64,000 nucleotides of DNA, from contig JBDKJY010000002.1 in assembly GCA_039796295.1 (NCBI GenBank), positions 49,931-113,930 of the forward strand. The letters run 5' to 3'. Shown one piece after another: positions 6,322-37,510 of the stretch; within the stretch, counting starts at the first letter, position 1, and each line of letters starts with the position of its first letter. The position numbers and the translations under genes are program-made. The DNA is from Verrucomicrobiota bacterium. GTDB lineage: Bacteria; Verrucomicrobiota; Verrucomicrobiia; Limisphaerales; SXTU01. The notes under the pieces were generated by a model. That model made no database searches and was not told where the DNA came from. It saw nothing but the letters and a program-made list of their open reading frames with translations.

Positions 6322-6380
6322 CAGTCGGATGCGCTCACGCTACGCAGCCCCTCGCCGAAGGCGAGCGATTCCTCCGCCCG

Positions 6381-6524
6381 GTAGGGCGAGACTCCGTCGA
6401 GCCCCATTTGCCGACGCAGGAGGCGCGAGCGCAGCGAGCATCTCGGTCGGACGCACCGGCCCGGGAAACTCGCTGCGCTCGCCTCGCTACGCTCGAGATG
6501 GGGTTCGACGGAGTCTCACCCTAC
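6381..6524. repeat. GTAG-type REP inverted pair (BIME-like)
   Basis: gtagggcgagactccgtcgagccc (6381-6404) and near reverse complement gggttcgacggagtctcaccctac (6501-6524). Confidence 0.75.
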
Positions 6525-6593: not shown

Positions 6594-9569
6594 ATGCGCA
6601 ATAGTCTCTGCCTGCTCCTCGTCGCGTTCACCGCCGCGCTCCCCGCGTCGCGCGCCCAAGACGCCGCCAAGGAAGCCCAGTTTCTCACCAACACCCGCCA
6701 GCTCATTTACGAGGGTCGCCGCAGCGGCGAAGGCTACTTCAGCGCCGATGGCAAGTTCCTCGTATTCCAAAGCGAGCGCGAGGCGGACAATCCCTTCTAC
6801 CAAATCTATCTGCTCAACTTGGAGTCCGGCGACGTGAACCGTGTCTCCCCCGGCACCGGCAAGACCACCTGCGCCTTCCTCCGCCCCGGCAGCGACGACG
6901 TGCTCTTCGCCAGCACGCACACGGACCCCGAGGCCAAGACCAAGCAGAAGGCCGAACTCGACTTCCGCGCCGCCGGCAAGTCCCGCCGCTACGCCTGGGA
7001 CTACGACGACCGCATGGAACTCTTCGTGTCCAAGCGCGATGGCTCGCAAGTCCGCCGCCTCACCGACGCTCCCGGCTACGACGCCGAGGGCAGCTACTCG
7101 CCGGACGGCAAGCTCATCGTCTTCTGCTCACTGCGCCACGCCTACGCCGCCCCGCTCTCGCCCGAGGACAAGAAGAAGCTCGAGGTGGACACCGCCTACT
7201 TCGGCGACATCTACCTCATGAACGCCGACGGCTCGAATGTCCGCCGCCTCACCAGCACGCCCGGCTACGATGGCGGCCCGTTCTTCTCGCCCGACGGCCA
7301 GCGCGTCATCTGGCGGCGCTTCAACGAGAAGGGCGACACGGCGGACGTTTACACCATGAAGCTCGACGGATCCGATGTGCGCCGCCTCACCGACTTCGGC
7401 GCGATGTCCTGGGCGCCCTACTTCCACCCCTCCGGCCAATACGTCATCTACACCGCGAACAAGCTCGGCTTCGCGAACTTCGAGTTGTTCCTCGTGGACG
7501 CGCTCGGCGCGAAGGAACCCGTGCGCGTGACCTACACCGACGGCTTCGACGGTCTCCCAGTCTTCTCCCCCGACGGCAAGAAGCTCGCGTGGACCAGCGG
7601 CCGCACGCCGGAGAAGAACTCGCAACTCTTCATGGCGGATTGGAATCACGCGGGGGCGCTGGCGGCATTGGAGAAGGCAGCGAAGCGGAGCGCGGCAAGT
7701 AATCAGTCATTGGTAATTAGTGCTAAGTCCGAATCCCAAGTGCGCGTCGGCCCAGTCACCAACACCGAGCCGCCGAAGAACCTGCCGAGGCTTCAAGGCT
7801 ACCTCCCCGACATCCGCGAGCAGGACCTGCGCAACCAAGTCGGATTCCTCGCGAGCGAGGACCTCGAGGGCCGCCTCACCGGCACGCCCGGCGCGCAGAA
7901 GGCCGCCGCCTACATCGCCGAATACTTCAAACTCGTGGGCTTGGCACCGCTCCCGTCCGCCACCGACTTCTTTCAGCCCTTCGAGTTCAGCTCCGGCGTC
8001 CGCGTGCTGACGAACCAGAACACTGCTTCGCTCCGCGCTACCACCAACGCCGCGCCCGCTGCGCTCACGCTGGACAAGGACTTCCGCCCGCTCGCCTTCA
8101 CCGCGAACGGCACCATCGAGGGCGATGTGGTCTTCGCCGGCTACGGACTTTCCGTCCCCGGCAAGATGGGCGAGGGCTACGACTCCTACTCAGGTCTCGA
8201 CGTGTCCAACAAAGTTGTCCTCGTCCTGCGCTACGTGCCCGAGGAGGCCGAACCCAAGCGCCGCCAAGAGCTGAACCGCTACGCCGGCCTGCGCTACAAG
8301 GCCCTCATCGCGCGCAATCGCGGCGCGAAGGCGTTGCTCGTCGTCACCGGTCCCACCTCGCCGAACCCCGGCGAGCTGGCGCGGCTCACCTTCGAGAGCG
8401 GCGCGAGCCACAGCGGCATCGTGTGCGCCAGCATCACCGGCGACGTGGCGGCGAAGATGTTCACTGCGGCGGGCAAGGACTTGAAGAAGACCCAGGCCGC
8501 GCTCGACAAGGAAGACCCGCACGCGGAAGGAGCCTTCCCCCTCAAGAACGTCGCCGTGAAGCTCACCGCCGCCGTCGAGCACGTGAAGAAGTCGGACCGC
8601 AACGTCCTCGCGCACATCCTGCCCGTGGGCACCAAAGAGTATGTCATCGTCGGCGCGCACTACGACCACCTCGGTCACGGCGAGACCGGCGGCTTCGCGC
8701 GCAAGGACGAGGAAGGCAAAGTCCACCCCGGCGCAGACGACAACGCCTCCGGCACCGCCGCGCTGCTGGAGTTGGCCGGAGCGATTTCGGCCCAAGCGGG
8801 CTTGGAGAAGACGGGCTTCCGCCGCGGCATCCTCTTCGCCGCATGGTCCGGCGAGGAAGTCGGTTTGATTGGCTCCTCACACTTCGCCGAGCACTCGCCG
8901 GTCGCGCTCTCGAACGTCGTCGCCTACGTGAACTTCGACATGGTGGGCCGCCTCCGCGACAACAAGCTGAACCTCCAGGGCATCGGCTCCTCGCCCGCAT
9001 GGCGCAAGCTCATCGAGAAGCGCAACGTCGCCGCCGGCTTCAACCTCACGTTGCAGGAAGATCCGTATCTGCCCACCGACACCACGCCGTTCTACCCGAA
9101 GAACGTCCCGGTCATCGCCTTCTTCACCGGTAGCCACGAGGAGTATCACCGCCCCGCCGACAAGCCCGACACGCTCAACTACGACGGCCTTGAACGCATC
9201 GCGAAGTTCGCCCGCGCCCTCCTCACCGACCTCGCCACCGGCCCCGAGCGCCCCGCCTACGCGAAGGTTGAAAAGCGCGACGGTGGCGGCGGACGCGAGC
9301 AGCTTCGCGCCTACCTCGGCACCATCCCCGATTACGCGCAGGAAGTGGCCGGCGTGAAACTCAGTGGCACTCGCGGCGGCAGCCCCGCCGAAAAGGCCGG
9401 ACTAAAAGGCGGCGACATCATCGTTGAATTCGCCGGGCAGAAGATTGCGAACATCTACGACTACACCTACGCGATGGACGCCGTGAAAATTGGCCAGCCC
9501 GTGAAAGTCGTCGTCCTCCGCGACGGGAAACGCGTGGAACTCATCGCCACACCAGCAACGCGGAAGTGA
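6594..9569 (+). CDS. M28 family aminopeptidase with N-terminal PD40 (TolB-like) beta-propeller, PA and PDZ domains
   Basis: Signal peptide; repeated FSPDG; GAHYDHLG, GADDNASG, WSGEEVG, NFDMVG, YHRPAD; C-terminal YLGTIPD...SPAEKAGL..GD. Confidence 0.92.
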   Translation: MRNSLCLLLVAFTAALPASRAQDAAKEAQFLTNTRQLIYEGRRSGEGYFSADGKFLVFQSEREADNPFYQIYLLNLESGDVNRVSPGTGKTTCAFLRPGSDDVLFASTHTDPEAKTKQKAELDFRAAGKSRRYAWDYDDRMELFVSKRDGSQVRRLTDAPGYDAEGSYSPDGKLIVFCSLRHAYAAPLSPEDKKKLEVDTAYFGDIYLMNADGSNVRRLTSTPGYDGGPFFSPDGQRVIWRRFNEKGDTADVYTMKLDGSDVRRLTDFGAMSWAPYFHPSGQYVIYTANKLGFANFELFLVDALGAKEPVRVTYTDGFDGLPVFSPDGKKLAWTSGRTPEKNSQLFMADWNHAGALAALEKAAKRSAASNQSLVISAKSESQVRVGPVTNTEPPKNLPRLQGYLPDIREQDLRNQVGFLASEDLEGRLTGTPGAQKAAAYIAEYFKLVGLAPLPSATDFFQPFEFSSGVRVLTNQNTASLRATTNAAPAALTLDKDFRPLAFTANGTIEGDVVFAGYGLSVPGKMGEGYDSYSGLDVSNKVVLVLRYVPEEAEPKRRQELNRYAGLRYKALIARNRGAKALLVVTGPTSPNPGELARLTFESGASHSGIVCASITGDVAAKMFTAAGKDLKKTQAALDKEDPHAEGAFPLKNVAVKLTAAVEHVKKSDRNVLAHILPVGTKEYVIVGAHYDHLGHGETGGFARKDEEGKVHPGADDNASGTAALLELAGAISAQAGLEKTGFRRGILFAAWSGEEVGLIGSSHFAEHSPVALSNVVAYVNFDMVGRLRDNKLNLQGIGSSPAWRKLIEKRNVAAGFNLTLQEDPYLPTDTTPFYPKNVPVIAFFTGSHEEYHRPADKPDTLNYDGLERIAKFARALLTDLATGPERPAYAKVEKRDGGGGREQLRAYLGTIPDYAQEVAGVKLSGTRGGSPAEKAGLKGGDIIVEFAGQKIANIYDYTYAMDAVKIGQPVKVVVLRDGKRVELIATPATRK

Positions 9570-25928: not shown

Positions 25929-26054
25929 GATAATGGCCCGCCGGCCAAGCGGGCCGGGCGGAAAGTTCGGCGGAGAATGGAGTTTTGAAGCGGCTTGGAA
26001 AGGAGAATGTCGCGGGGGCGAAACCCTCCTGGCGCACGCGGCGTCCACACGGCC

Positions 26055-27899
26055 ATGCAAAAGCGCCAAACTCCAATTCGTAGCCGCCAAGGTGCGGAGG
26101 CGGAACTCGTCTCCAGCCAATCCGCCTCCTTACCTCGGCGGTTACCGCGCACCGTTGGGATTTGGAGCTGGGTGTTTCTTTGGAGCTTGGGATTGGGGAT
26201 TTGGTGCTTTCCCGCTGCCGCCGCGCCCGCGAAGCCGAACCTCATTTACATCCTCGCCGACGACATGGGCTTCTCGGACATCGGCTGCTACGGCGGTGAA
26301 ATTGCCACGCCGAATCTGGATGCGCTCGCGGCGGGCGGGCTGCGCTTCACGCAGTTCTACAACACCGCGCGCTGCTGCCCCACGCGCGCCTCGTTGCTCA
26401 CCGGGCTTTACCCGCACCAGGCGGGCGTCGGCCACATGGTGGACAGCAAGAAGGGCGGGCCGGGCTACCAGAACGAGTTGAACAAGAGCTGCATCACCAT
26501 CGCGCAAGCCGTGAAGCCCGCCGGCTACCGCGCCTACGCCGTCGGCAAATGGCACGTCACGCCCATCACGCGCGAGGACGACACGCCCCGCCACAATTGG
26601 CCGCTCCAGCGTGGCTTCGACCGCTTCTACGGCACCCTCCACGGCGCGGGCAGTTTCTGGGACCCCAGCTCGCTCGTGCGAGACAACCGCATCGTCACCT
26701 GCGTCAGCGACGCCGAGTATCAGCCCAAGGAGCCCTACTACTACACCGACGCCATCAGCGACCACGCGGTCCGCTTCATCCGCGAGCACGCGCAAGCCAC
26801 GGCGGACAAGCCCTTCTTCCTCTACGTCGCCTACACCGCCGCGCATTGGCCGATGCACGCGCGGGAAAGCGACATTGCCAAATACCAAGGCCGCTACAAC
26901 GCCGGCTACGAACCCATCCGCGCCGCGCGTTGGGCCAAGGCGAAACAGCTCGGCCTCGTGGACCCGAAGTGGGAGCTCACGCCCGCGTCAGGCGCGTGGG
27001 ACGGCGTGCGGAACAAGGCCTTCGAGGCGCGCTGCATGGAGGTGTATGCCGCGATGATTGACAGTATGGACCAAGGCATCGGGCGCATCGTGGCCGAGCT
27101 GAAGGCGCGCGGGCAGTTCGAGAACACGCTCATCTGCTACCTGCAAGACAACGGCGGTTGCGCCGAGCCGATGGGGCGAGGCACGAACTTCAGCGCCCGC
27201 GCGGAGAAGCCTTCCCTCCCGCCACTGGCCCCGACCGACCGCCAGCACGGTAGCGTGCCGAAGCAAACCCGCGACGGTTTCCCCGTGCGCCAAGGTTACG
27301 GCGTGATGCCCGGCCCGGCGGACACCTACCTCGGCTACGGACGCGAGTGGGCCAACGTGAGCAACACGCCCTTCCGCGAATACAAGCACTGGGTCCACGA
27401 GGGCGGCATCAGCACGCCGCTCGTCGCGCATTGGCCGAAGGGCATCGCAGCGCGTGGGGAACTGCGCTCGCAGCCCGGGCACTTGATTGACCTCATGGCC
27501 ACCGCCGTGGACCTCGCCGGCGCGCCGTATCCCGCTGAGTTGAACGGCGAGCGCATCACCGCGCTGCAAGGCGTCAGCCTCCGCGCCGCGTTCGCCAACC
27601 AGCCGCTCCCACGCCCCGAACCCATCTTCTGGGAACACGAAGGCAACCGCGCCGCCCGCGACGGCCAGTGGAAACTCGTCGCCAAAGGCCCCGGCGGAAA
27701 ATGGGAGCTCTACGACATGCTCGCCGACCGCACCGAAGCCCACGACCGCGCCGCCGCCGAGTCAGCCAAGCTGAAGGAACTCGTCACCAAGTGGGAAGTT
27801 TGGGCCAAGCGCGCCCACGTCATCCCCTGGCCACACATGCCGCAGTATGGCGAAGCCCCAACGGATGCGCCGCCGAAGAAGGGGAAGAAGAAGGTGTGA
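26055..27899 (+). CDS. Arylsulfatase
   Basis: PNLIYILADDMG, FGly motif CCPTRASLLTG, GKWH, DNGG; start codon uncertain. Confidence 0.9.
   Translation: MQKRQTPIRSRQGAEAELVSSQSASLPRRLPRTVGIWSWVFLWSLGLGIWCFPAAAAPAKPNLIYILADDMGFSDIGCYGGEIATPNLDALAAGGLRFTQFYNTARCCPTRASLLTGLYPHQAGVGHMVDSKKGGPGYQNELNKSCITIAQAVKPAGYRAYAVGKWHVTPITREDDTPRHNWPLQRGFDRFYGTLHGAGSFWDPSSLVRDNRIVTCVSDAEYQPKEPYYYTDAISDHAVRFIREHAQATADKPFFLYVAYTAAHWPMHARESDIAKYQGRYNAGYEPIRAARWAKAKQLGLVDPKWELTPASGAWDGVRNKAFEARCMEVYAAMIDSMDQGIGRIVAELKARGQFENTLICYLQDNGGCAEPMGRGTNFSARAEKPSLPPLAPTDRQHGSVPKQTRDGFPVRQGYGVMPGPADTYLGYGREWANVSNTPFREYKHWVHEGGISTPLVAHWPKGIAARGELRSQPGHLIDLMATAVDLAGAPYPAELNGERITALQGVSLRAAFANQPLPRPEPIFWEHEGNRAARDGQWKLVAKGPGGKWELYDMLADRTEAHDRAAAESAKLKELVTKWEVWAKRAHVIPWPHMPQYGEAPTDAPPKKGKKKV
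26080..26145. repeat. GTAG-type REP inverted pair inside the 5' end of the sulfatase ORF
   Basis: gtagccgccaaggtgcggaggcgga ... tccgcctccttacctcggcggttac. Confidence 0.65.
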
Positions 27900-28544: not shown

Positions 28545-28587
28545 GGAGAGATGGCCGAGTGGCTGAAGGCGCTGGTTTGCTAAACCG
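28545..28587 (+). repeat. att site (left): 5' half of tRNA-Ser(GCT)
   Basis: ggagagatggccgagtggctgaaggcgctggtttgctaaaccg, identical to 36763-36805; identity ends in the 3' strand of the anticodon stem. Confidence 0.95.
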
Positions 28588-28705
28588 TTTTCCCCGTTTC
28601 TCACTTTTCCTCTAAAACACCAATACAACCAATGGATTCAATGCTTTTGTGCGTGTCCTCATTTTTGGCCCGTGGCACGTCGTGACAGCATTTTGACACG
28701 TTTTT

Positions 28706-28802
28706 TGTCGGCAACTGTCGGCAAGTTTGGGTCATTTACCGGCTGCGAGGTTGCGGCCTGTTCGACTCGCCGCCGCCTGCCAATACCTGCCGACAGTTGC
28801 CG
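28706..28802. promoter_or_regulatory. Putative integrase arm-type sites, left arm
   Basis: tgtcggcaac-tgtcggcaag (28706-28725) and an inverted copy at 28788-28802; same motif is repeated at 36667-36697. Confidence 0.65.
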
Positions 28803-29276
28803 GGGCGGACAACTCCCGATGCTCTTGGGTAGTCAGTCCGATGGTCTGGCCGACCACGGGCTTGCATGGCGCGGAGCGGACGGCTAGCAATGCCGTCCTC
28901 CCGTCTGGCGGGCGCGGGTATCCTCCGCACTTGGGTTGTGTTTGCACCTCAGGGTACAACTCGCCAGACGGGCCTTCCCCTCCTCCCGGCTTTGCCTCTG
29001 CAAGCGCGTGGTGGGGCGGTGGGGGCGGGGCACGGCAGCCGGGCAGCAACGGCGCGACGCACCTTGCGCCAGCGCCAGCCGAGCCAAAGCCGGAGGTAGT
29101 CGAAGCAACTCACAAAGGGGAGGCGCGGCGCGCGTTTGGGCACGCCGCGCCATGCGTTCCGGGGCTGCTTATGAGGTCAGCGCCGGTCACGCGAGGTTGG
29201 GCCGCCATTGGTTCGCGCGGAAGCCCAAGGCCGGAAAGCCGGGTCATCCGAAAAAGGCCAATGGCGGCCAAGGGGT

Positions 29277-29831
29277 TCATGCAGTGCCAAGGGCGAACTT
29301 CAAAACTTTGCGCACGCGGTCGAAATCCTCCCCGCCGGGGCGAACTTCGTTCAGTAAGTTTTTGAACGCATCGCAACGGCGAAGCTCCTCGTTCAATCTG
29401 GCAACAGCGGGGGATTCGCGTTGCGTCTCGACTCCGACGCGCGCGGCAATGACGGCCTCGGCCTCGACGATCTCGGCCAGCTCCTTTTCGAGCCGTTCCT
29501 TCACGATGGGCAGCGCGGCTTTCAACGGCTCCAGGGTGCGAGCGACAATCCTGCCGCGAATTGTGTGGGCGGCTCGCGCACTGTTCGAGCCGATGGCCAA
29601 CAGGCGCAAGGGCAGCGTTGCGGTCAACTCGACGCTGCGCCGGAAGGTTTCGTCGTTCGGGTTGTGCTCTGCCTCATTGCGAGCGGCGTGTTCAGCCCGG
29701 CGGGCTTCGGCCTGCTGTTCAGACAGGCTCTCAAGCCATGCAATGTCTTTGCCGTTCTCCGCTTCGATCTTGCGCAGCGGCGCGAGCGGGTCGGGCGAGA
29801 GTTTCAGAAACAAGCGTTGAATCAGGTTCAT
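29277..29831 (-). CDS. Satellite hypothetical alpha-helical protein (paralog A)
   Basis: 184 aa, amphipathic helices, colinear similarity to 29838-30374. Confidence 0.75.
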   Translation of the reverse strand: MNLIQRLFLKLSPDPLAPLRKIEAENGKDIAWLESLSEQQAEARRAEHAARNEAEHNPNDETFRRSVELTATLPLRLLAIGSNSARAAHTIRGRIVARTLEPLKAALPIVKERLEKELAEIVEAEAVIAARVGVETQRESPAVARLNEELRRCDAFKNLLNEVRPGGEDFDRVRKVLKFALGTA

Positions 29832-29837
29832 GGTGGT

Positions 29838-30374
29838 TCAGGCGTTGAAACCTTGCAGCAACCACGCCGCGTGGTGCGCGAGGCGCTGGTCGTTTTCGAC
29901 TTCGTGCAGCGCGTTCTGCGCGGCTTCGACGCGGGCCTTGATCTTCGTGGAAAGTCCGCCGGAGAGTTCCGCCGCCGGCACGCCGAGCTTTTCCGCACGG
30001 GTGGCGTCCTCTGCCGCCAGCGCGGATTCCTCGCGGGTCCAAAGGTCAATCGCCGCTTCGAGGGCGGGCGCTAGCGTCTCTTTGAGGCGGACAAGCTCAC
30101 TGCTGGTCTGCCATGACACCAAGGACGTGAACGCTTCGCGCAAGCCGGGGGCCTGTGTGGTTTCTGCGGCCATCGCGGCGACAAGGGCGGCGGCGGTTGC
30201 GTCGGAGGGTTCGTTTTGAAGCCGGGTGCGTGCGGTGCGAACGTCGGCGGCAAGCGCCTCGGCTTTCTGGTGGAAGGCCGCGCGCCATTCCGCATCCTTG
30301 GCGGACTGCGCTACGGCGCGGCGAAGGGCGGCGATTTCAACGGGCGGATTTTTTTTGAACAGGGAGGTAAACAT
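29838..30374 (-). CDS. Satellite hypothetical alpha-helical protein (paralog B)
   Basis: 178 aa, Ala-rich helices, tight operon spacing (6-7 nt to neighbours). Confidence 0.75.
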   Translation of the reverse strand: MFTSLFKKNPPVEIAALRRAVAQSAKDAEWRAAFHQKAEALAADVRTARTRLQNEPSDATAAALVAAMAAETTQAPGLREAFTSLVSWQTSSELVRLKETLAPALEAAIDLWTREESALAAEDATRAEKLGVPAAELSGGLSTKIKARVEAAQNALHEVENDQRLAHHAAWLLQGFNA

Positions 30375-30381
30375 GATGGTT

Positions 30382-31383
30382 TCAGTTTGGGAAAATCGCG
30401 GCGCGCTGGCCGTTTAGGCGTGCCGCCAGCCAAGCTTCGTAATCGGCGGGGAGTTCCTTCACGGCGGCGGTGATGGCCTCGCCGTGCGTCTTGCCACTGG
30501 CCGCAAGCGCCCGGCACTTGGCGATGAACTGCGCGGAGCTTGGCGCGGTGAGTTGTGCGCCGGGCGAGGCGGAGGACAGGCGGCGAACCACTTCGTTGAC
30601 CGTCTCACCGACAACGTCCACCAGTCCCAGTGCCTTCGCGCGACTGGCGAAAAACGTCTCGCCAGTCAGTGCGCCCTTCGCGATGCCACCGCGACTAGAC
30701 AGAACCGACGTGCGAAAATCCGTGGCGAGTTCGTCCACCTTGCCTTGCAGGCTCGCGCGGCCCTCGTCGGTGAGCTGCTGGAAGGGGTGAGCGGACGCCT
30801 TGCCCGTAGGCGAGGAAATCACAGTCGCAGTAATGCCTCGCATCGCGAGTGCATTGGAAACGCTCAGGTGCGAAATGACCGCGCCGACGCTTCCAACATT
30901 GGAACTTTTCGAGGCGGAGATGCGATTCGTCTTAGCGGCAAGCCAATAGGCGGCGCTGCAACAATTTCCGTCCACGATGGTTTGCACCGGGAGCTTCGTA
31001 GTTGTCGCCACGATGCTGTCCACGCATTCGAGCAGGCCGGAAACCTCGCCACCGGGCGAATCCACCAACAGCGCAACACCTCTCAGGCCCGGCGAGGTTC
31101 GCGCGGTTTCCAACGCGGCGGAGATGCCCGTGTAAGAGCAGAAGCCAAGGCTCAACTCAACGGTCGTTGCATTTTTCAAAAGCGGACCTTGAATGGGAAT
31201 GGTCATCACTCCGCCTTGAATTAACACCTGCGGGCGGTCGCTTCCGTCTGCCATTTTTCCGGCCACGGTGCCGGGGGTGGCGGCGAGGCTCACACGAGCC
31301 GCCCAAGCCAAAAGTGCGTTGCTTTCGGCAAGCCAGATTGGCGCTCGCGCGAAGATATAGTCGGCGGTTTGTGTGTTCATCAC
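30382..31383 (-). CDS. S49 family peptidase (phage prohead protease/SppA-like) with scaffold-like C-terminal tail
   Basis: VDSPGG, CCSAAYWLA (catalytic Ser), GSVG, GKAS (candidate Lys), TGETFFASRAKALGLVD. Confidence 0.88.
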   Translation of the reverse strand: MMNTQTADYIFARAPIWLAESNALLAWAARVSLAATPGTVAGKMADGSDRPQVLIQGGVMTIPIQGPLLKNATTVELSLGFCSYTGISAALETARTSPGLRGVALLVDSPGGEVSGLLECVDSIVATTTKLPVQTIVDGNCCSAAYWLAAKTNRISASKSSNVGSVGAVISHLSVSNALAMRGITATVISSPTGKASAHPFQQLTDEGRASLQGKVDELATDFRTSVLSSRGGIAKGALTGETFFASRAKALGLVDVVGETVNEVVRRLSSASPGAQLTAPSSAQFIAKCRALAASGKTHGEAITAAVKELPADYEAWLAARLNGQRAAIFPN

Positions 31384-31643
31384 AGTTGAGGGGAGTTGAG
31401 TTTTTCCAGTTCTGCTTTCAACAGCGGAAGGCGCTGCATCAGGAATAGCGGCTGGCCGTGCGTGTCGAGTGCGTCGGGCGTCAGCGCCCCGTCGGCGAAG
31501 GCGCGATATACTCTTGCCATCGGCGCGGAGGCGATGCGGGCGAGTTCCGCGCGAGAGAGGAACACGTCGAGACTACGGGGCGGCGGGGCGAGGTCCGCGC
31601 AGGCGTCACGCGCGGGGGCGGCAGTCACTTGCGTTGAAGTCAT
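31380..31643 (-). CDS. Small winged-HTH-like DNA-binding protein
   Basis: 87 aa; LSRAELARIASAPMARVYRAFADGALTP resembles MerR/Xis/TerS-type HTH; stop overlaps the S49 start. Confidence 0.6.
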   Translation of the reverse strand: MTSTQVTAAPARDACADLAPPPRSLDVFLSRAELARIASAPMARVYRAFADGALTPDALDTHGQPLFLMQRLPLLKAELEKLNSPQL

Positions 31644-31648
31644 GCTGC

Positions 31649-31677
31649 AAAGTAGGAGAGCTAATCGCACAAGTAAA
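31649..31677 (-). promoter_or_regulatory. Putative promoter of the satellite second (late) operon
   Basis: Minus strand TTTACT-17 nt-TACTTT, 5 nt before ATG 31643. Confidence 0.45.
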
Positions 31678-32063
31678 GGATTTAATGGAATGAGTTTTCC
31701 GAAACTGGTTATTCCCCCGCCCCCAGCGCCTTCATTGCCCGGCTGGCCGAATCCAAGACGCTCACCAGCTCCGCGTTGACCCGCTCCTCAACTGCAACCG
31801 GTTTTTTGGTCACTTGTGAAACGGAAACCCGAGTTTCGCTGAATTCATAGAAAGAGGGCGGTGGTCGAACCGCGTGAGGCTAAGGGTTTTCCAAGGAAAC
31901 TGTTTGACGGCATAGGCGGGGTAGGCACCACGACGGCCCGCCCCGCGCCCACGTTGACCGCTGTTGCGTCAGGACAGGCGAGGGAAGGTTTGCCACGGGG
32001 CACGCGGCCTGCCCTGCCTTGGCGGCTTGTGGGCGAGTGGAAGCCAGTAATGCGCGGTGGCGT

Positions 32064-32152
32064 ATGCGGACGCATAACAGCTTTTTCCCATAACTTTCCT
32101 CTAGCAGCTTCCGTGAGGGAAGTCTTGGGAAATTCCTGTTATACGTCCGCAT
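32064..32152. repeat. Large imperfect inverted repeat at the primase 3' end, candidate replication origin
   Basis: atgcggacgcataacag / ctgttatacgtccgcat (16 of 17) plus inner imperfect arms. Confidence 0.6.
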
Positions 32153-34398
32153 CCTAGTCTTGGGTTGCGATGCTTTCCGCCGCGTAGCCGGTAGCCAACC
32201 CAGCAATGCTGCCGCTCATGGCCTGACTTGGTTTCCTGCCAGCCTCGGCCTGCCAACTGGAAACCCAAACCACGCTTGCTGGCCTGATGGTCAATGCCTG
32301 CCCGCGTTGCCCATTCACGATAAGCCGCGTATGCCGCCGCCTTGGTGACGGTGGCCCCTTCCTCTTGGATGAAGTGCTCCGCGATGAATTCTGCCAGCTT
32401 GTCGGACTGTAGCCTGTAGGCTTCGGTTGCTACGGTGCAGCATTCGGGCGGCTGCAAACCGTGTTGCATCCATTCCCGCGCTCCCGTCACGGCCCAGTTT
32501 AGAATCCCCGACATTTCAGCGGCGAGCTTGTCCTTGAGTTGACCGTCGCGCCGTTCCTTGGGGATTTGCACCGGCCAGTCCACAAGGAGAAATCTCCGCC
32601 AGATTCCGTCATCGGTGCCGTCAATGCGCGGCTTGTGGTTGCCCACCAGCGCAACCTTGTAGGTCGGGAAATACTCGATGAAGTTCGCATAGTGAAAGCG
32701 CCCCTTCTGGCGGTCGCCGCCGGTCATGGATTTGAGCAAGTTTTCGTTGAGCTTCCCGCCTTCCGTGTTCTCCTCGCCCAGCGCAAAACGCTTCCCGCAC
32801 AGATTGGCGATCTCAAGGTGCGGGATGTGTCCCTTCGCGCTCTGATACACCAGCGCGTCCGTCAACTTCGCCCCGTAGCCGCCTGACAATTTCAGTTGAG
32901 CGTGTTCTAGGAAGGTGCCTTTGCCGTTGGCTCCCGTTCCGAAATGGAAGGGAAGGACGTGTTCACGAATCTCCCCCGTCAGCGAATAGCCCGCCAGCCG
33001 TTGAAGGAATCCTCGCATCTCTTCGCTCGGCTGAACCTCCGCGAGAAACCTGGCCCATGTCGGCGCGGTGGCGGTGGGGTCATAGTTGGCGCTCAGTCGC
33101 CGCGTGACAAGGTGCTCCGGCTTGTGCGGATGGAATGAGCCGTCGCGCAGGTCAATGACGCCGTTCCGTGCGCCAACAAGGAACAGGTCCGCGTCCAGCT
33201 CGGCAGCGCGCACGCTCACGGTCGGGTGACACTGGGCGAAGGCCAGAGCAGGCTCGACGCGCTTGCGATTCCCCAAAGAGACGACACTAGACACGAGTTT
33301 GATTCCCTCATTTGGCTCTTTGTCCTTAGCCTCCTCCACGGCCAAAAGATACAGCTCGCGTGCGTAGTCGGCAGCCTTTGCGCGAATCTCATTTGTCTCG
33401 TCTCGTCGCCAGCCATTCGCGGCGTCAAAGACGAGCCAGCAATTTTCATCGGCACAAAAGCGAATAGTGCCTGCGAACCGTTGCACCAGCTTGTCAGCGT
33501 AGCCAACGTCAGACCGAAAATGGTTTCCTGTGTCGGCAGTCGGATTCCCCGCCGGGGCGGACGCTGGCGCATGGCGCGGAGCGGGCTGCCACTCCGGCGC
33601 GGAATCCATAATCAGCGTCAAGTCTCTCGCCTCCCCGCCCGCCCCAAAGAAGTCGGCGGCGTCCTTCACCGTGCGCCCGTCAACGTCGGGACACTCGACA
33701 ACCTTCACGCTGGCCGCCGCGCCTTGCAGCTTGGCCGCAACGTGTGCCGCGTGTTCACGCCCCGGCTTGTCCCTGTCCGCGATGATGACGACGAACGCGC
33801 CTCGCAGGGCGGCGGTGTAGTTGTCGAGCCATTTGCTCGGCTGGCCGGGCTTCGGTTCTGAAACCGCTCCTCCCGAATTGCACGTCGCGATGAAACCGTG
33901 TTTGACGAGCGCGAGCGCGTCCTTCTCCCCCTCCGCCAAAACCACGCGCCAGCCTTGGGCGGCGGCTTCCGCAACTTCCGGCAGACGAAAGAGCACGCGG
34001 CGAACGCCTTCAAGTTTCCACGTCCATCCGTCGGGCTTGGCCGGGTCGGGCCGGCGCTGGCGGAAATCCTTCGGTTCAAACCGGACAACCTGAAAGAGCA
34101 GTTGCCCGGTTTCGTCGCGGTAGTCGTAGGCAGCCACGATTCTCCCGCTGCCGCGCGCGTGCCCGTTGCCGTTGCGTCCGCCTGTCGCGGGAAACAAGTC
34201 GGCCACCTTCAAGCCCCGCGCCTTCAACACGTCCTCCGTCTTGCAGCCGGCGAAACAGTTCACCAGCACCTTGCCGCCTTCGCCTTCCGCCAAGCTCAGG
34301 CTGGCCGCGCCGTCATCGTGAGCAGAGCAGCGAGCCATGAATCCAGCGCCGGACTTTTTGACGCCTTCAAAGTGGGAAGCAACTTCGTTCAGGTTCAA
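32101..34398 (-). CDS. Phage/plasmid primase-helicase, P4 family (Zn finger + Toprim + D5/SF3 helicase)
   Basis: CSAHDD...NCFAGC; AEGEKDA, ADRD; Walker A GTGANGKGT; KSMTGGD, GNHKP, GIWRR; TTG start after AGGAGG. Confidence 0.93.
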   Translation of the reverse strand: MNLNEVASHFEGVKKSGAGFMARCSAHDDGAASLSLAEGEGGKVLVNCFAGCKTEDVLKARGLKVADLFPATGGRNGNGHARGSGRIVAAYDYRDETGQLLFQVVRFEPKDFRQRRPDPAKPDGWTWKLEGVRRVLFRLPEVAEAAAQGWRVVLAEGEKDALALVKHGFIATCNSGGAVSEPKPGQPSKWLDNYTAALRGAFVVIIADRDKPGREHAAHVAAKLQGAAASVKVVECPDVDGRTVKDAADFFGAGGEARDLTLIMDSAPEWQPAPRHAPASAPAGNPTADTGNHFRSDVGYADKLVQRFAGTIRFCADENCWLVFDAANGWRRDETNEIRAKAADYARELYLLAVEEAKDKEPNEGIKLVSSVVSLGNRKRVEPALAFAQCHPTVSVRAAELDADLFLVGARNGVIDLRDGSFHPHKPEHLVTRRLSANYDPTATAPTWARFLAEVQPSEEMRGFLQRLAGYSLTGEIREHVLPFHFGTGANGKGTFLEHAQLKLSGGYGAKLTDALVYQSAKGHIPHLEIANLCGKRFALGEENTEGGKLNENLLKSMTGGDRQKGRFHYANFIEYFPTYKVALVGNHKPRIDGTDDGIWRRFLLVDWPVQIPKERRDGQLKDKLAAEMSGILNWAVTGAREWMQHGLQPPECCTVATEAYRLQSDKLAEFIAEHFIQEEGATVTKAAAYAAYREWATRAGIDHQASKRGLGFQLAGRGWQETKSGHERQHCWVGYRLRGGKHRNPRLGCGRITGISQDFPHGSC

Positions 34399-34550
34399 CG
34401 CGCGCCTCCTGCCGCGTGGCGGCGGCGCTTGCTCGGGAAGAAGTCGCGAAGGCGAAGGCCGGAGTCCGGTTCGTAGCCGCGCGCGAGGATGCGTTCAACA
34501 AGTCGGCGAGTTGAGCCGGAACACTTCGACCAACGGAGCGAAGATTTCAA
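34395..34550 (-). CDS. Small basic 51-aa ORF coupled between the HTH and primase genes
   Basis: MKSSLRWSKCSGSTRRLVERILARGYEPDSGLRLRDFFPSKRRRHAAGGAR; TTGA overlaps at both ends. Confidence 0.55.
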   Translation of the reverse strand: MKSSLRWSKCSGSTRRLVERILARGYEPDSGLRLRDFFPSKRRRHAAGGAR

Positions 34551-34792
34551 CGCGCACCTGCCTTCCCGGTCGTGCAGCGGCGGCGGTCAAGCCATGCGTC
34601 CACGTCAGCCTTCCGGTAGCGGACGGCCTTGCTGGAAATGCGGATGAAGGGAAGCCCGCGCGTGGTGCGCCACAGGCGGCAGGTGCGCGGCTCGACGTTC
34701 AGGTAAGCCGCCGTGTCGGATTCGAGCCAGAGAGCAGCGCTGGCATTTGCGGCCGGCGCGACGGCGGTTGGTGTCGGCAATGTTTGTTTCAT
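34547..34792 (-). CDS. AlpA/excisionase-like HTH protein
   Basis: TAAYLNVEPRTCRLWR...GLPFIRISSKAVRYRKADVDAWL; an alternative ATG exists at 34810. Confidence 0.88.
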   Translation of the reverse strand: MKQTLPTPTAVAPAANASAALWLESDTAAYLNVEPRTCRLWRTTRGLPFIRISSKAVRYRKADVDAWLDRRRCTTGKAGAR

Positions 34793-34850
34793 GGCGGGAG
34801 GTTCCGCCATGCGCCGCGCTTAAACCCGGACTGCGAAGGACCGCCGCCCG

Positions 34851-35423
34851 TTATTTGTTCCGAGTTTTCGGGCGGCCGCTATTGCCCTCCAAAAACGACA
34901 AGCCAACGACCTTTGCTTCCTTGCGCCAGTGCCGGTCGGAAAGTTTTCCGAAACTGGACGGGATTAGCACCTCGCTTTTCGTCTCGGGCCTGTCCGGGTC
35001 TGGTTTGACCTGTCGAAGCGTGAACTTTGGCAAGCCGGACTTCACGCGCCAGCGGTTCATCGTTTTGAGCATGAGCAAGTGAAGGTGGAATGGGTCCGCA
35101 TACTTCTCATTGAACCGCACGGACTGCCTGCGAACTTCTTTCGCAAGCCGCAGGAAGAAATCGGCGTCGTGTGCCTTGACCGCGTTCACACACTTGGCGG
35201 CGAGCTTGGTTTCCGAATCAGTGCCTCCGCTGGAAGTGAGAATCCGTCTGCTCAAAAGAGCCTGCTTGTTCAGGATGTAGAAGACTTCCTCAAATTCAGG
35301 GGAGAGATAATCGCAGGTGCCATGCTCCGCGAGTAGCGACTTGCGAAAGTCATCGGGGGCAATGCGAATTTTTCCGGCCAGTGTTTTGCGTTTTTTGGCG
35401 GGCTGTCGTTTGAGGGTCTTCAC
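34851..35423 (-). CDS. Satellite hypothetical basic protein
   Basis: GTG start overlaps the integrase stop (GTGA) after GGAGG; 190 aa beginning MKTLKRQPAKKRK. Confidence 0.7.
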   Translation of the reverse strand: MKTLKRQPAKKRKTLAGKIRIAPDDFRKSLLAEHGTCDYLSPEFEEVFYILNKQALLSRRILTSSGGTDSETKLAAKCVNAVKAHDADFFLRLAKEVRRQSVRFNEKYADPFHLHLLMLKTMNRWRVKSGLPKFTLRQVKPDPDRPETKSEVLIPSSFGKLSDRHWRKEAKVVGLSFLEGNSGRPKTRNK

Positions 35424-36667
35424 GCTGCCACCTCCGCCTTGCCGGCTGGCCTGACGGCAAACCACGCTTGCGCGTCGGACGGTTGAACCAATTCGCGGTA
35501 GTGCTTGAACACCACGGCAGGCGAGTTGCCCGCTTCCAGCGCGACTTGGGCGGCGTTTTGAATCGCGGCGAGCCGGTAGGAGATGAAGGAGTGGCGAAGC
35601 CCGTTGTCCTGCCACGCCACACCAGCGGCTTTGACACACGCGGCCCGGTCCTTTTGCAAGAGGCTCGCCGTGCCCTGCCATACCTTGCCCGGTTGCCCGG
35701 CGTAGGGCGCGAGCCATGCGGCCAAGTTCGCAGAGATGGGCACCAGTCGCCGGCTGGCCGTCTTCGCCATGTCCTCGCCGACGTGGATAAAGCCGCGCGC
35801 GAGGTCTAGGTCGCTCCATTCCAGCCGCTCGACTTCCGCCGTTCGCAGTCCGGCAAATGCGCCGATGGCGACAACCGGCAGGAAGCGCGGGGTGGCGGAT
35901 TGCAGCAGCTTGGCAATTTCGTCGGGGGCGAAAATTGCGATGCTGCCGCCGTTTGATTTCACCTTCACTTCCTCGGTGCCGAGCACCGGATTGCTCCCTT
36001 TGAGCAGGTAGCCACGCGCCTCGGCAAAGCTGAACAGCGTTCCCAGCACGGTGCGGAAGTTCTTTTTCGACTGCTTGCCGAGCTTCAAACCGTCGAGAAA
36101 CATTTGCACGTCGGCGGTCGTGACGGTGGAAATGTCCACGGTGAAACGCTCGGCAAAGCGCTTCAACCGCTGGCGCAAGTCGGTGAGGTAGTCCGCCGAG
36201 CAGCCGTCGGCGGCTTTGACGGCCAGCAAGTCGGCAATCACGTCGGCGACAAGGCGCTGCTCAACCTTGGCCGGGTTGAACTTGGCGAAGTGCCGGGCGG
36301 CTTCGAGCAGGTTGTCCCCGCCGAGCAGTTCAAAGCACTTGGCGAAGGTGGACGCGGCCAGTTCAAGAGAAGCGCCCGTTGGCCGCAGCAACTCGACGGC
36401 CCGGCCATAGCTGGCGGATTCGGCGTTGCTCAAACTGGCGGCAGACACGTCCCCGCTCGCAATCTTGCCGGCAATGCCCTTCGCGGCCTCGACGGCGGCG
36501 GGGCGGTCGCTGAAGCCACGAAAGCGCCGGACGCCTTCCGAATAGTCGGCCACCTCAAACACCGTGCGGAAGTTTCCGATTGTGGTCTGGCGACTCCGTT
36601 TGTAGATTCGGACCGTGACGTTGCCAACTTTAACAGTCTCCGGCTTTGAACGTGTCGCGCGTTTCAT
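35420..36667 (-). CDS. int: Tyrosine recombinase/integrase
   Basis: AGLRTAE (R), AKT (K), NGLRHSF, AGNSP, KHYR (Y); N-terminal arm-binding-like domain; adjacent to the att/tRNA. Confidence 0.95.
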   Translation of the reverse strand: MKRATRSKPETVKVGNVTVRIYKRSRQTTIGNFRTVFEVADYSEGVRRFRGFSDRPAAVEAAKGIAGKIASGDVSAASLSNAESASYGRAVELLRPTGASLELAASTFAKCFELLGGDNLLEAARHFAKFNPAKVEQRLVADVIADLLAVKAADGCSADYLTDLRQRLKRFAERFTVDISTVTTADVQMFLDGLKLGKQSKKNFRTVLGTLFSFAEARGYLLKGSNPVLGTEEVKVKSNGGSIAIFAPDEIAKLLQSATPRFLPVVAIGAFAGLRTAEVERLEWSDLDLARGFIHVGEDMAKTASRRLVPISANLAAWLAPYAGQPGKVWQGTASLLQKDRAACVKAAGVAWQDNGLRHSFISYRLAAIQNAAQVALEAGNSPAVVFKHYRELVQPSDAQAWFAVRPAGKAEVAA

Positions 36668-36703
36668 GTCGGCAACTGTCGGCAAAGTGTCGGCAACTGT
36701 CAA
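36667..36703 (-). promoter_or_regulatory. Arm-type repeats coinciding with the putative integrase promoter
   Basis: Three tgtcggcaa(c/a) copies; minus strand reads TTGACA-17-GACAGT-7-ATG. Confidence 0.6.
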
Positions 36704-36762
36704 CTACGGCCTTCTAGCACAAGGTCGGAACGGCTTGTAAAGCCAATGGTTTCAATGGTTTA

Positions 36763-36855
36763 GGAGAGATGGCCGAGTGGCTGAAGGCGCTGGTTTGCTA
36801 AACCGGTATACGGTCAAAAGCCGTATCGGGGGTTCGAATCCCCCTCTCTCCGCCA
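36763..36855 (+). tRNA. tRNA-Ser(GCT)
   Basis: Cloverleaf: acceptor ggagaga/tctctcc, anticodon loop ttgctaa, long variable arm, ggttcgaatc T-loop, encoded CCA. Confidence 0.97.
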
Positions 36856-37087: not shown

Positions 37088-37390
37088 TTAGCCGGAACGA
37101 TGCAGTTGAAAGGAGACCACCGGTTGGGAACTGATTGGTGGTGGGTGAAAACACCGCAAACGTCGGGCACGCGCCCGGTTCACCAAAACGGCAGCCACGG
37201 GATTTGAGTTCAACAGCGGCGGCAAGACAATCGCCATTGAGTTCAGCGACCAACGCCTCTCGCCTCACGCGAGCAGCGCCACGTTCTGGGGCTGGCGGCG
37301 GCCCTTGGACTGGGTCACCCGGCTGGCCGCCGCATTGCCGCATCCCTTGCCCACTTCCAAACTCACCTCCTACTGCATCTTTCCGGCTTA
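37088..37390 (+). mobile_element. Internally deleted IS1380-like remnant (MITE-like)
   Basis: Terminal inverted repeats ttagccggaacgatgcagt / actgcatctttccggctta (17 of 19); frameshifted fragment IEFSDQRLSPHASSATFWGW...LPHPLPTS resembles an IS1380 transposase N-terminus. Confidence 0.6.
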
Positions 37391-37510
37391 GGATTACGAG
37401 CAGGTGCCACGGTTCGGCTGCCTCCCCCCTGCTCGTAAATCTGATCTTAATCCTGCTCCGCCCGCTTTCCCTTCCTGACAACGGCGGCTCAGCCCACTAC
37501 GCTCTCGCCC

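What the first reader, a model, noticed from the sequence alone, without database searches (positions are those of the whole stretch)
28545..36805. Compact phage satellite with an unfamiliar capsid-hijacking module in a probable Verrucomicrobium
Seen: 43-bp direct repeats (predicted excised circle 8218 bp) enclose a one-strand gene set: integrase, 190-aa orphan, AlpA/Xis HTH, 51-aa ORF, P4-type primase-helicase, inverted-repeat ori candidate, then a second operon of wHTH, S49 protease and two paralogous helical proteins. No major capsid, portal, terminase or tail gene is recognisable. Known: int-alpA-primase cores define PICI, PICMI and P4-like satellites, and cf-PICIs carry a protease together with their own capsid and portal. 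Inference: a protease-scaffold plus a helical paralog pair without a capsid matches none of these families as I know them, so this may be an undescribed satellite type that remodels a helper phage head.
Basis: partly seen in the sequence, partly recalled or inferred. Interest (0 to 1): 0.85.

Follow-up and report, generated by a model that had tools for sequence, protein, structure and literature searches.

The report
Small integrated element with phage-head protease
An 8.2-kb mobile element sits at a serine tRNA gene of a freshwater bacterium and carries its own integration and replication genes plus a phage head-maturation protease and two helical proteins but no capsid gene, which fits a phage satellite of a little-known kind.

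Summary
Exact 43-bp direct repeats lie 8,218 bp apart; the right copy is the 5' part of tRNA-Ser(GCT). They enclose one-strand genes: tyrosine integrase, 190-aa orphan, AlpA-type HTH, 51-aa ORF, P4/D5 primase-helicase, a long hairpin, then a coupled operon of MerR-like wHTH, S49 head-maturation protease and two helical paralogs ending in a terminator-like hairpin. No capsid, portal or terminase was found.

It is not a one-off remnant. The operon pattern wHTH, then S49 or a protein sharing its C-terminal motif, then a helical protein recurs in five further loci of four genomes of the same order. Two are repeat-bounded islands at tRNA-Ser(GCT) with different integrases and replicases, and none has a recognisable capsid gene. 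In related prophages S49 sits between portal and a coiled-coil protein followed by the major head protein, so the paralogs occupy the scaffold position.

Most likely it is a phage-satellite-type element with a protease plus scaffold-like module. Satellite behaviour is inferred: no helper, packaging signal or excised form was seen. Capsid-less marine satellites with serine proteases (VEIMEs) and PICIs with an occasional serine protease are already in print. I rate it a new variant of a known kind.

The parts
28545..28587 (+). attL: left copy of the 43-bp direct repeat, a displaced 5' fragment of tRNA-Ser(GCT)
   Evidence: 100% identical to 36763-36805; weak partial tRNA hit, 23 bits; only two copies in the genome
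28699..28802 (.). Repeated 9-10-nt motif (two direct copies plus an inverted pair) just inside attL; candidate integrase/Xis arm sites
   Evidence: families D6, I6; 3 of the 4 exact 9-mer matches in 64 kb lie at the element ends; expected 1.24. Function inferred.
29109..29151 (-). GC-rich hairpin followed by a short T run: terminator-like end of the second operon, conserved with the G005 element
   Evidence: alignment with L008 8850-9085; sequence. The consensus scan did not list it. Inferred.
29277..29831 (-). helB, 184-aa all-helical protein of an unnamed family
   Evidence: pLDDT 88; helices 17-56, 60-132, 141-162, 167-181; 20 representatives at E<=1e-3
29838..30374 (-). helA, 178-aa paralog of helB
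   Evidence: retrieved at 8.5e-27 by a profile built without it
30382..31383 (-). S49 (SppA/lambda gpC-type) head-maturation protease, 333 aa, with a conserved extra C-terminal motif (about residues 297-320)
   Evidence: Ser143 and Lys195 invariant in 3 element proteases; reading them as the catalytic dyad is recalled from SppA, not tested. C-terminal motif shared with a non-protease protein of G690.
31380..31670 (-). MerR/excisionase-like winged HTH (87-96 aa); its stop overlaps the S49 start
   Evidence: (phrog_2474, E 0.011)
32064..32152 (.). Long imperfect inverted repeat over the 3' end of the primase gene; candidate ori or operon boundary
   Evidence: I1; z -5.1. No counterpart found in 3 related loci. 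Function not shown.
32101..34398 (-). Primase-helicase: Toprim domain plus D5_N/P4-family primase C-terminal helicase, 765 aa
34395..34550 (-). 51-aa ORF, conserved in the G005 element (61% over 46 aa)
34547..34810 (-). AlpA/excisionase-type HTH_17 protein, 87 aa
34851..35423 (-). 190-aa orphan ORF between integrase and AlpA
   Evidence: no family; no significant similarity to the 173-aa protein at the same position in G005
35420..36703 (-). Tyrosine integrase, 427 aa as listed; the true start may be the Met 12 codons in
   Evidence: (the first codons overlap the repeated motif)
36660..36696 (.). Three tandem copies of the same motif as at attL, next to the integrase start
   Evidence: (D6)
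36763..36855 (+). Intact tRNA-Ser(GCT); nt 1-43 form attR
   Evidence: 58.8 bits

Best explanation
The region is an intact 8.2-kb integrative, self-replicating mobile element of the phage-satellite type. It belongs to a small family found so far in one order of a PVC-type (probably Verrucomicrobiota) lineage.

Early module: integrase, orphan, AlpA/Xis, 51-aa ORF and P4/D5 primase-helicase. It integrates and excises the element at the anticodon-stem region of tRNA-Ser(GCT) and replicates it, possibly from the hairpin at the end of the primase gene.

Late module: one translationally coupled operon of MerR-like wHTH, S49 protease, helA and helB, closed by a terminator-like hairpin.

Proposed mechanism (inferred). 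During infection by a lambda-like helper phage of the portal / S49 / coiled-coil / major-head type, the wHTH protein turns the operon on or marks the DNA. helA and helB act as alternative scaffolding proteins on the helper's capsid protein. The element's own protease, carried in by its conserved C-terminal motif, removes them. Helper heads are thereby diverted to the element, either re-sized or filled with concatemers.

Shown here: the anatomy, the family, and the phage origin of the protease. Inferred: helper dependence, the scaffold role, and any change in capsid size.
For: 1. Mobility. Exact 43-bp repeats occur only twice in the genome, next to an integrase, with a motif repeated inside both ends.

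2. Satellite-type core. Integrase, AlpA-type HTH and P4-family primase-helicase are present.

3. The protease is of phage type. phrog_53 'head maturation protease' scores 7.5e-55, against SppA TIGR00706 at 95 bits, below its cut-off of 155. tblastn finds it in 1016 phage records, where it is annotated as prohead or head-maturation protease.

4. Scaffold position. Eleven of the 12 loci I fetched from genomes of the same order have no integrase or wHTH hit from the element. In 10 of those 11 the S49 gene is followed by a 134-184-aa ORF and then an ORF of about 290-350 aa. The small ORFs read as coiled-coil sequences. PHROGs on 10 proteins from 5 of these loci named a portal (phrog_21, 1 of 1 tested) and major head proteins (3 of 4 tested). 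helA and helB follow S49 at that same position and are all-helical.

5. The compact set is conserved.
- G005, same genus, about 9.7 kb at the same tRNA: int, 173 aa, AlpA-like, orf51 homolog (61%), another Rep, then wHTH (43%), S49 (51.5%), helB (68%) and the same terminator.
- G780, another family, 11,167 bp with exact 37-nt repeats at tRNA-Ser(GCT): int (34%), Rep with iterons, wHTH overlapping S49.
- G751: int ... wHTH, S49, then the contig ends.
- G690, two loci: wHTH, a 232- or 181-aa protein, then a helix-family protein.

6. The wHTH profile hits only these places: among six-frame ORFs of 48 listed loci (the S49-bearing loci of the order plus the element loci), and once in the own genome.

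7. The S49 C-terminal motif recurs in the 181-aa non-protease protein that precedes a helix gene in G690. This resembles the way lambda's protease and scaffold share a C-terminus (recalled, not tested).

8. No capsid, portal or terminase gene is in the window element or was recognised among the G005, G751 and G780 ORFs submitted.
Against: - No helper was found. The own assembly (95% complete) has no PF05065, PF03864 or PF05136 match, and no tblastn hit to 18 head proteins of related prophages.
- No terS, HNH, pac or cos feature was identified.
- The helix family is absent from IMG/VR with 4 queries, and from 80 IMG/VR S49 loci.
- helB has no informative fold or sequence match to any known scaffold.
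- No excised or empty-site form could be seen, and element depth equals flank depth in run X1.
- In G005 and G780 a tape-measure-like gene follows the operon. A head-only model does not explain this.
- One G690 locus has a 232-aa protein in place of S49, without the clear C-terminal motif.
Confidence: 0.55

Rival explanations
1. Interference or defence cargo. The element is a satellite or a mobilisable island, but the wHTH-S49-helix operon does not build particles for it. The protease and helical proteins poison or prematurely process an infecting phage's head (and, in relatives, tail) assembly. The island would then protect the host, in the manner of an abortive or decoy defence.
For: The phage-type protease is separated from its normal partners. 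The helix family is absent from viral contig collections. No packaging gene is present. Satellites and islands commonly carry anti-phage genes (general knowledge; Eppley 2022 passages).
Against: No PADLOC model matches S49, helA or helB. The operon is the conserved core rather than a variable cargo slot: it is kept while integrases and replicases are swapped. Interference and hijacking are also not exclusive in known satellites.
Confidence: 0.2
2. Degraded or minimal prophage lineage. The family descends from a lambda-like temperate phage and has lost most structural genes, leaving protease, scaffold-like and sometimes tape-measure genes. These are retained by drift or for a non-transfer role, and the element moves only as an integrative plasmid-like island, if at all.
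For: S49 homologs of 27-37% identity lie in ordinary TerL-portal-S49 contexts in 60 of 80 IMG/VR loci and 17 of 18 alphaproteobacterial loci by BLAST to head proteins. G005's tape-measure-like protein is homologous to proteins on IMG/VR contigs that also carry S49 (38% over 223 aa). One IMG/VR contig (L149) pairs a related integrase with an S49 gene followed by a row of unannotated ORFs.
Against: All ORFs are intact and tightly coupled. The att repeats are exact here and in G780. The same short gene set with its own terminator recurs across families with about 32-68% protein identity, which argues for purifying selection rather than independent decay. Dedicated replication genes of non-phage-head type accompany it.
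Confidence: 0.15
3. Not phage-related in function. This would be an integrative mobilisable or replicative island whose S49 peptidase and helical proteins serve a cellular role, such as envelope or protein quality control. The 'head protease' label would be a family-level resemblance only.
For: The S49 family also contains SppA and SohB. helA and helB have no annotated relatives.
Against: The PHROG head-protease profile scores far better than the SppA models, which stay below their cut-offs. The protease has no signal peptide or membrane domain family hit. Every recurrence is inside an integrase/replicase island.
Confidence: 0.07

Closest known systems
VEIMEs, virion-encapsidated integrative mobile elements of marine plankton (Eppley et al. 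2022, PMC9618062; passages read, supplements not seen)
   Same: Small size (under 5 to 16.8 kb). Integrases, primase/helicases and AlpA. No major capsid gene. One module (2) carries 'periplasmic serine proteases', which the authors link to procapsid maturation. Integrated copies were reported in Verrucomicrobia among other groups.
   Different: The protease-bearing module was associated with Pelagibacter and other Alphaproteobacteria. The Verrucomicrobia-associated module 3 mostly uses serine recombinases, whereas this element has a tyrosine integrase. No helical paralog family or wHTH-led operon is mentioned in the passages I read. VEIMEs were defined by being found as concatemers in particles, which is untested here. 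The habitat here is freshwater.
PICI, including SatelliteFinder 'Type C' elements (de Sousa et al. 2023, PMC10085698; passages read)
   Same: An int, alpA, primase/replicase core on one strand. Integration at a specific site. A serine protease is said to occur occasionally in PICI.
   Different: No terS, ppi, rpp or cpm-type gene was recognised. int+alpA+primase alone is the low-confidence class that the authors excluded. The host phylum is outside those reported in the abstract.
P4-like satellites
   Same: P4-family primase-helicase (TIGR01613 above cut-off), AlpA-type regulator, integrase, tRNA integration. Small helical proteins of about 180-190 aa in a late operon, a size and composition reminiscent of Psu (Atlas lead at 0.87).
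   Different: No Psu match in Pfam at E<=0.1. No tblastn match of helB in 50,697 phage records. No Sid, Delta or Epsilon was recognised. P4 has no protease.
cf-PICI, capsid-forming PICIs
   Same: A satellite that carries a prohead serine protease together with int, alpA and primase.
   Different: cf-PICIs carry their own major capsid, portal and head-tail connector genes. None is present here.
Lambda-type head module: gpC protease, Nu3 scaffold, gpE capsid
   Same: S49-family protease followed by a helical protein. A C-terminal motif shared between the protease and a non-protease protein in relatives recalls the shared C-terminus of gpC and Nu3 (recalled).
   Different: No portal before and no capsid gene after. 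No detectable sequence similarity of the helix family to the protease-scaffold fusion of phage FoX4.

Membership tests
Phage satellite (general) | Lacks its own full set of virion genes | tested here: met
   No capsid, portal, terminase or tail family at E<=0.1 in Pfam, PHROGs or NCBIfam. The largest unexplained ORF is 190 aa.
Phage satellite (general) | Is packaged and transferred by a helper phage | not testable with these tools
   No helper in the assembly. Logan contigs (k=31) cannot resolve junctions across a 43-bp repeat.
Phage satellite (general) | Own integration, excision and replication functions | tested here: met
   Integrase, AlpA/Xis-type HTH and primase-helicase by family matches. 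Activity not shown.
P4-like | P4 alpha-type primase-helicase | tested here: met
   TIGR01613 at 245 bits against a cut-off of 108.7; D5_N 1.7e-22.
P4-like | psu / sid / delta capsid-redirection genes | tested here: not met
   By sequence only. No PF07455 hit at E<=0.1. helB has no tblastn match in the phage collection at E<=0.1. A fold-level relation to Psu remains inconclusive.
cf-PICI | Own major capsid, portal and head-tail adaptor genes | tested here: not met
   None detected.
cf-PICI | Prohead serine protease | tested here: met
   phrog_53 7.5e-55; PF01343 5.1e-21.
PICI | int + alpA + pri/rep core | tested here: met
   By the authors' own words this alone equals 'Type C'.
PICI | Packaging or hijack gene (terS, ppi, rpp, cpm) | tested here: inconclusive
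   No family hit. AlpA has a weak phrog_57 terS hit (E 0.065). The wHTH fold also resembles terS DNA-binding domains at low rank. SatelliteFinder itself could not be run.
VEIME | Found as concatemers inside virus particles | not testable with these tools
   Needs virome long reads. The element's helix family was not found in IMG/VR.
VEIME | Small integrative element with primase/AlpA and no major capsid gene | tested here: met
Peptidase S49 | S49 domain with conserved Ser and Lys | tested here: met
   PF01343 at 75.7 bits against a cut-off of 24.9. Ser143 and Lys195 are invariant in the 3 element proteases. Their catalytic role is recalled from SppA, not assayed.

The most novel reading that the evidence does not exclude
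A family of capsid-less satellites in PVC-type bacteria hijacks lambda-like helpers by supplying its own matched pair: a prohead protease and a new class of scaffolding proteins (helA/helB). Some members also supply their own tape-measure protein. They would then re-dimension both the helper's head and its tail without encoding any shell protein, a strategy not described for P4, PICI, cf-PICI, PLE or PICMI.
Probability: 0.25. Interest if true: 0.8.

Novelty: new variant of a known kind. Interest (0 to 1): 0.55.

Why it matters
Phage satellites are well studied in Proteobacteria and Firmicutes and barely at all in PVC bacteria. This locus defines a recognisable, conserved gene set that can be searched for: a wHTH, an S49 protease or a protein sharing its C-terminal motif, and a protein of an unnamed helical family of about 20 representative clusters.

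If the helical proteins are scaffolds, the family would show a third way to redirect a helper's head, after external (Sid, TcaP) and internal (CpmB) size determinants. In this one the satellite also brings the protease needed to clear its own scaffold.

The element also sits on the 5' side of what appears to be the only tRNA-Ser(GCT) gene of the assembly. The element must therefore supply that tRNA's upstream region, an unusual dependence between host and island.

Tried and rejected
- Fold of helB. Foldseek against PDB found no match at E<=0.001. VIA-align wide gave a best Z of 9.0 on partial helical overlaps, within the range the tool calls uninformative for helical proteins. A PDB profile search gave nothing below E 0.4.
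- Atlas. The best rows are unnamed clusters at 0.89. A Psu cluster stands at rank 17 with 0.87, which is a lead only and is not confirmed by Pfam or tblastn.
- hhalign of the helix family. Probability 0.06% against the FoX4 protease-scaffold. Against G780's 146-aa protein, no relation. Against G780's 346-aa protein, E 0.062 over 36 columns, a hint only.
- Complex prediction of the S49 C-terminus (residues 255-333) with helB gave no verdict (score 0.00, controls not run). This counts neither for nor against binding.
The 4-row alignment found nothing in IMG/VR or in JGI metagenomes. Three single distant members found nothing in IMG/VR.
- Genome contigs with the S49 protein returned 18 alphaproteobacterial loci. 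By BLAST to head proteins, 17 have a portal hit, and 13 of those also a TerL hit. They are prophages, not relatives of the element.
- The small 'Ralstonia phage' records (11.8 kb) that hit S49 have large ORFs before and after the S49 gene, sized like terminase, portal and head genes. I did not annotate them and read them as phage fragments, not satellites.
- Empty site. The left and right flanks are conserved in all 19 other genomes of the genus, but on different contigs or 12 kb apart. No tRNA lies next to them in the 18 loci scanned, so no orthologous empty site could be shown.
- Reads. Only Logan contigs were available. The element is present in the 4 freshwater runs laid, and unitigs break inside the 43-bp repeats. 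The two listed joints have short sides of 20-22 nt and are not att junctions. With k=31 below the 43-bp repeat, neither a circle nor an empty site can appear. The lower element depth in X3 (11.5-14.1 against 20.3 and 16.9) is not interpretable from contig means.
- The hairpin 32064-32152 has no counterpart in 3 related loci. The ori assignment stays a guess.
- Rfam found only the tRNA and its fragment.
- The promoter scan found no sigma-70-like site. The terminator scan gave 10 sites against 13.3 expected and did not list the conserved hairpin.
- The orphan 190-aa ORF has no significant similarity to the 173-aa protein at the same place in G005.
- Literature. 'satellite' + 'Verrucomicrobi' + 'helper phage' gave 4 papers, 2 listed, of which I read passages of one. 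A wider 4-term search brought up nothing else of use. I found no printed description of this operon in searches. That is a limited search and does not show absence. Datasets S2-S6 of Eppley et al. could list the same protease family and were not seen. I made no call for supplements, which the task text says are closed.
- SatelliteFinder/MacSyFinder is not available here.

Full report
OBSERVATION. The window holds an exact 43-nt direct repeat at 28545-28587 and 36763-36805, spaced 8,218 bp apart. The right copy is nucleotides 1-43 of a tRNA-Ser(GCT) gene at 36763-36855. The 43-mer occurs nowhere else in the 6.2-Mb, 97-contig assembly.

All sizeable genes between the repeats read on the minus strand:
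- A tyrosine integrase, 35420-36703.
- A 190-aa ORF without relatives.
- An HTH_17 AlpA/excisionase-type protein.
- A 51-aa ORF.
- A 765-aa primase-helicase with Toprim, D5_N and the P4-family primase C-terminal domain (TIGR01613, 245 bits against a cut-off of 108.7).
- After a 430-bp gap, a small protein whose stop overlaps the start of an S49 peptidase.
- Two ORFs of 178 and 184 aa.

The S49 protein matches the PHROG head-maturation-protease family at 7.5e-55. It stays below the curated cut-offs of the cellular SppA and SohB models. PADLOC has nothing for the protease or the two small proteins. No ORF matches a capsid, portal, terminase or tail family, and none of the unexplained ORFs is long enough to hide one.

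REFINEMENTS.
(i) The small protein ahead of S49 is a winged HTH. Its AF2 model has a core pLDDT above 90. The best Foldseek rows are MerR-type DNA-binding domains (BldC, RacA, NmlR; E about 0.02, prob 1.00, none at E <= 0.001), and small-terminase DNA-binding domains appear further down.
(ii) The two helical proteins are true paralogs. Pairwise BLAST is marginal. Profiles built without the tested protein pull out helA (8.5e-27; 5.5e-29 from distant members only) and helB (1.1e-36), and nothing else at E <= 0.1, from 54,397 six-frame ORFs of the genome.
(iii) helB models confidently (pLDDT 88) as a long helical hairpin plus two short C-terminal helices. It has no informative structural or sequence neighbour.
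(iv) A GC-rich hairpin with a short T run at 29109-29151, conserved in a related element, closes the operon.
(v) A 9-10-nt motif is repeated two to three times inside each end of the element, partly inverted at the left end. Three of the four exact 9-mer matches in the 64-kb window lie there. I read these as arm-type recombinase sites; this is an inference.
(vi) The inverted repeat at 32064-32152 forms a strong hairpin (z -5.1). It overlaps the primase stop codon and has no counterpart in three relatives, so 'ori' is a guess.

THE ELEMENT IS NOT ALONE.
helA alone had no relatives in the word-indexed 5.8-billion-protein search, and helB had three. An exhaustive profile search found 20 representatives at E <= 1e-3, all 174-240 aa.

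Genome searches found the family rarely:
- One other genome of 60 relatives with helB.
- None of 400 other phylum genomes with the narrow profile.
- Three of 400 other genomes of the order with the broad profile: one strong, one a C-terminal fragment, one marginal.

The contexts are telling.
- G005 (same genus) carries, at the 3' end of the same tRNA-Ser(GCT), a roughly 9.7-kb island bounded by a 75-nt repeat of 79% identity. Its order is integrase, 173 aa, AlpA-like, small ORFs including a 61%-identical orf51 homolog, a different 256-aa Rep-like protein, then wHTH (43%), S49 (51.5%), helB (68%) and the same terminator hairpin.
- G780 (another family) has an 11,167-bp island with exact 37-nt repeats at tRNA-Ser(GCT). 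It holds an integrase 34% identical to the window's, a Rep with five internal iterons, and a wHTH overlapping a 275-aa S49. These are followed by 146-, 160- and 346-aa proteins.
- G751 has an integrase, three unknown proteins, wHTH and S49 before the contig ends.
- G690 has two short contigs with a wHTH, a 232- or 181-aa protein and then a helix-family protein. One sits beside a T7-gp4-type primase-helicase. The 181-aa protein shares the conserved C-terminal motif of the three element proteases.

The wHTH profile hits only these places among the six-frame ORFs of 48 listed loci, and hits only once in the own genome. None of the ORFs I submitted from these islands matched a capsid, portal or terminase family.

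The integrases and replicases differ between islands while the late operon is kept. I read this as modular evolution around a selected core, not parallel decay.

WHAT THE LATE OPERON RESEMBLES.
S49 homologs at E <= 1e-15 occur in 28 of 400 other genomes of the order. I fetched 12 of those loci.
- Eleven show no integrase or wHTH hit from the element.
- In 10 of the 11, the S49 gene is followed by an ORF of 134-184 aa and then one of about 290-350 aa, and preceded by ORFs of about 500-600 aa.
- The small ORFs read as coiled-coil sequences.
- PHROGs, run on 10 proteins from 5 of these loci, named the one upstream ORF tested a portal. It named 3 of the 4 downstream ORFs tested major head proteins, and left the coiled-coil proteins essentially unnamed.

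Phage FoX4, among the best annotated phage hits, shows portal, protease, decorator and major head protein in that order. helA and helB thus sit where phages of this lineage keep their scaffold, and like scaffolds they are all-helical. There is no detectable sequence relation.

The alphaproteobacterial hits are ordinary phage contexts too. Of 18 loci, 17 have a portal hit by BLAST, and 13 of those also a TerL hit. Among 80 IMG/VR loci, 60 have TerL, portal or head-protein hits by BLAST. None of the 80 contains the wHTH or the helix family.

MECHANISM (inferred). The early module integrates and excises the element and replicates it. The late operon is probably switched on during infection. helA and helB act as alternative scaffolds on a helper's capsid protein, and the element's own protease, targeted by its C-terminal motif, clears them. 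The outcome would be heads that favour the element, whether re-sized or filled with concatemers as in PICMI and VEIME.

Weak points:
- No helper is present in this assembly.
- No packaging gene or site was recognised.
- The complex prediction gave no verdict.
- Public data here (k=31 unitigs) cannot show a circle or an empty site across a 43-bp repeat.
- The two repeat-bounded relatives carry a tape-measure-like gene after the operon. G005's copy is homologous to proteins on two IMG/VR contigs that also carry S49. This may mean tail involvement, or unrelated cargo placed behind the terminator.

COMPARISON WITH KNOWN KINDS.
- P4-like: the primase and AlpA fit, but psu, sid and delta were not found by sequence. 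An Atlas lead to Psu at 0.87 is unconfirmed.
- cf-PICI: the protease fits, but capsid, portal and adaptors are absent.
- PICI: only the generic core fits. The SatelliteFinder authors call this 'Type C' and set it aside; they also note an occasional serine protease in PICI (passages).
- VEIMEs are the nearest printed description: small, capsid-less, with integrase, primase and AlpA. One module has 'periplasmic serine proteases', and some copies are integrated in Verrucomicrobia (passages). That module is alphaproteobacterial and the verrucomicrobial one uses serine recombinases. The supplements that might settle identity were not seen.

I therefore rate this a new variant of a known kind. It is a conserved, hitherto undescribed late operon and helical protein family inside a satellite-type chassis, in a phylum where satellites are hardly known.

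PECULIARITY OF THE SITE. The repeat is the 5' 43 nt of the tRNA, ending at the 3' side of the anticodon stem. The island therefore lies upstream of the intact gene, and the integrase diverges from it 60 bp away. The related islands in G005 and G780 use the ordinary 3' end of the same tRNA. ARAGORN finds only one other 'tRNA-Ser(GCT)' in the assembly, and that sequence looks like GC-rich coding DNA. The rebuilt gene is thus probably the only one and must be transcribed from element-borne DNA. This is an inference.

HABITAT. The stretch, or parts of it, is held by 16 coded runs labelled freshwater, lake-water or aquatic metagenome, from 15 studies. Three of them may be the source of this DNA. 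Two other runs carry pieces without differences.

Noticed in passing
window 28545-28587 and 36763-36855: The island lies on the 5' side of the tRNA: the duplicated block is nt 1-43 of tRNA-Ser(GCT), not the usual 3' end. The rebuilt gene seems to be the only credible tRNA-Ser(GCT) in the assembly, so it must be driven from element DNA. Related islands use the 3' end of the same tRNA.
   Followed up: partly
L008 (G005:C94) 7218-8909 and L077 (G780:C4) 6630-7820: Tape-measure-like genes (563 and 396 aa; PHROG tape-measure families at 1.2e-19 and 6e-11) lie downstream of the S49 operon in two related capsid-less islands. The G005 protein is 38% identical over 223 aa to a protein on an IMG/VR contig that also carries S49. 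The window element has about 530 bp without a convincing ORF at that place.
   Followed up: partly
L077 12535-12691: Five iterons of about 30 nt lie inside the Rep gene of the G780 island, a likely origin. The island is bounded by exact 37-nt repeats 11,167 bp apart.
   Followed up: partly
L008 5763-6809: A second integrase gene in opposite orientation (348 aa, partial Pfam match) lies near the tRNA end of the G005 island. This suggests two elements in tandem, or a remnant of an older one.
   Followed up: no
own genome contig C22, about 837-6504 (outside the window): A second pair of integrase (35% identical to the window's) and a weak P4-type primase hit lies in the same genome, without the wHTH or helix family. 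The genome also holds several further integrase paralogs (C8, C44, C61, C34).
   Followed up: no
L149 (an IMG/VR contig of 7,362 bp): A 423-aa S49 ORF followed by a row of same-strand ORFs that I did not annotate, ending in an integrase 39% identical to the window's. It could be a prophage end or a cf-PICI-like element. It contains neither the wHTH nor the helix family.
   Followed up: no
window about 37090-37187 and 37390-37463: Short interspersed repeats of about 70-100 bp to the right of the tRNA recur on many contigs of genomes of the genus, at up to 93-97% identity.
   Followed up: no
window 36667-36703: The listed TTG start of the integrase lies inside the tandem motif copies, so its first 12 codons repeat a short peptide. 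The real start is probably the Met 12 codons downstream.
   Followed up: no
window 25995-27899: The left flanking gene is an arylsulfatase (Atlas score 0.98). Its last 900 bp are conserved at 81-90% identity in 17 of the 19 other genomes of the genus, with weaker or partial matches in the other two. The 650 bp between it and the tRNA fragment are not conserved.
   Followed up: partly
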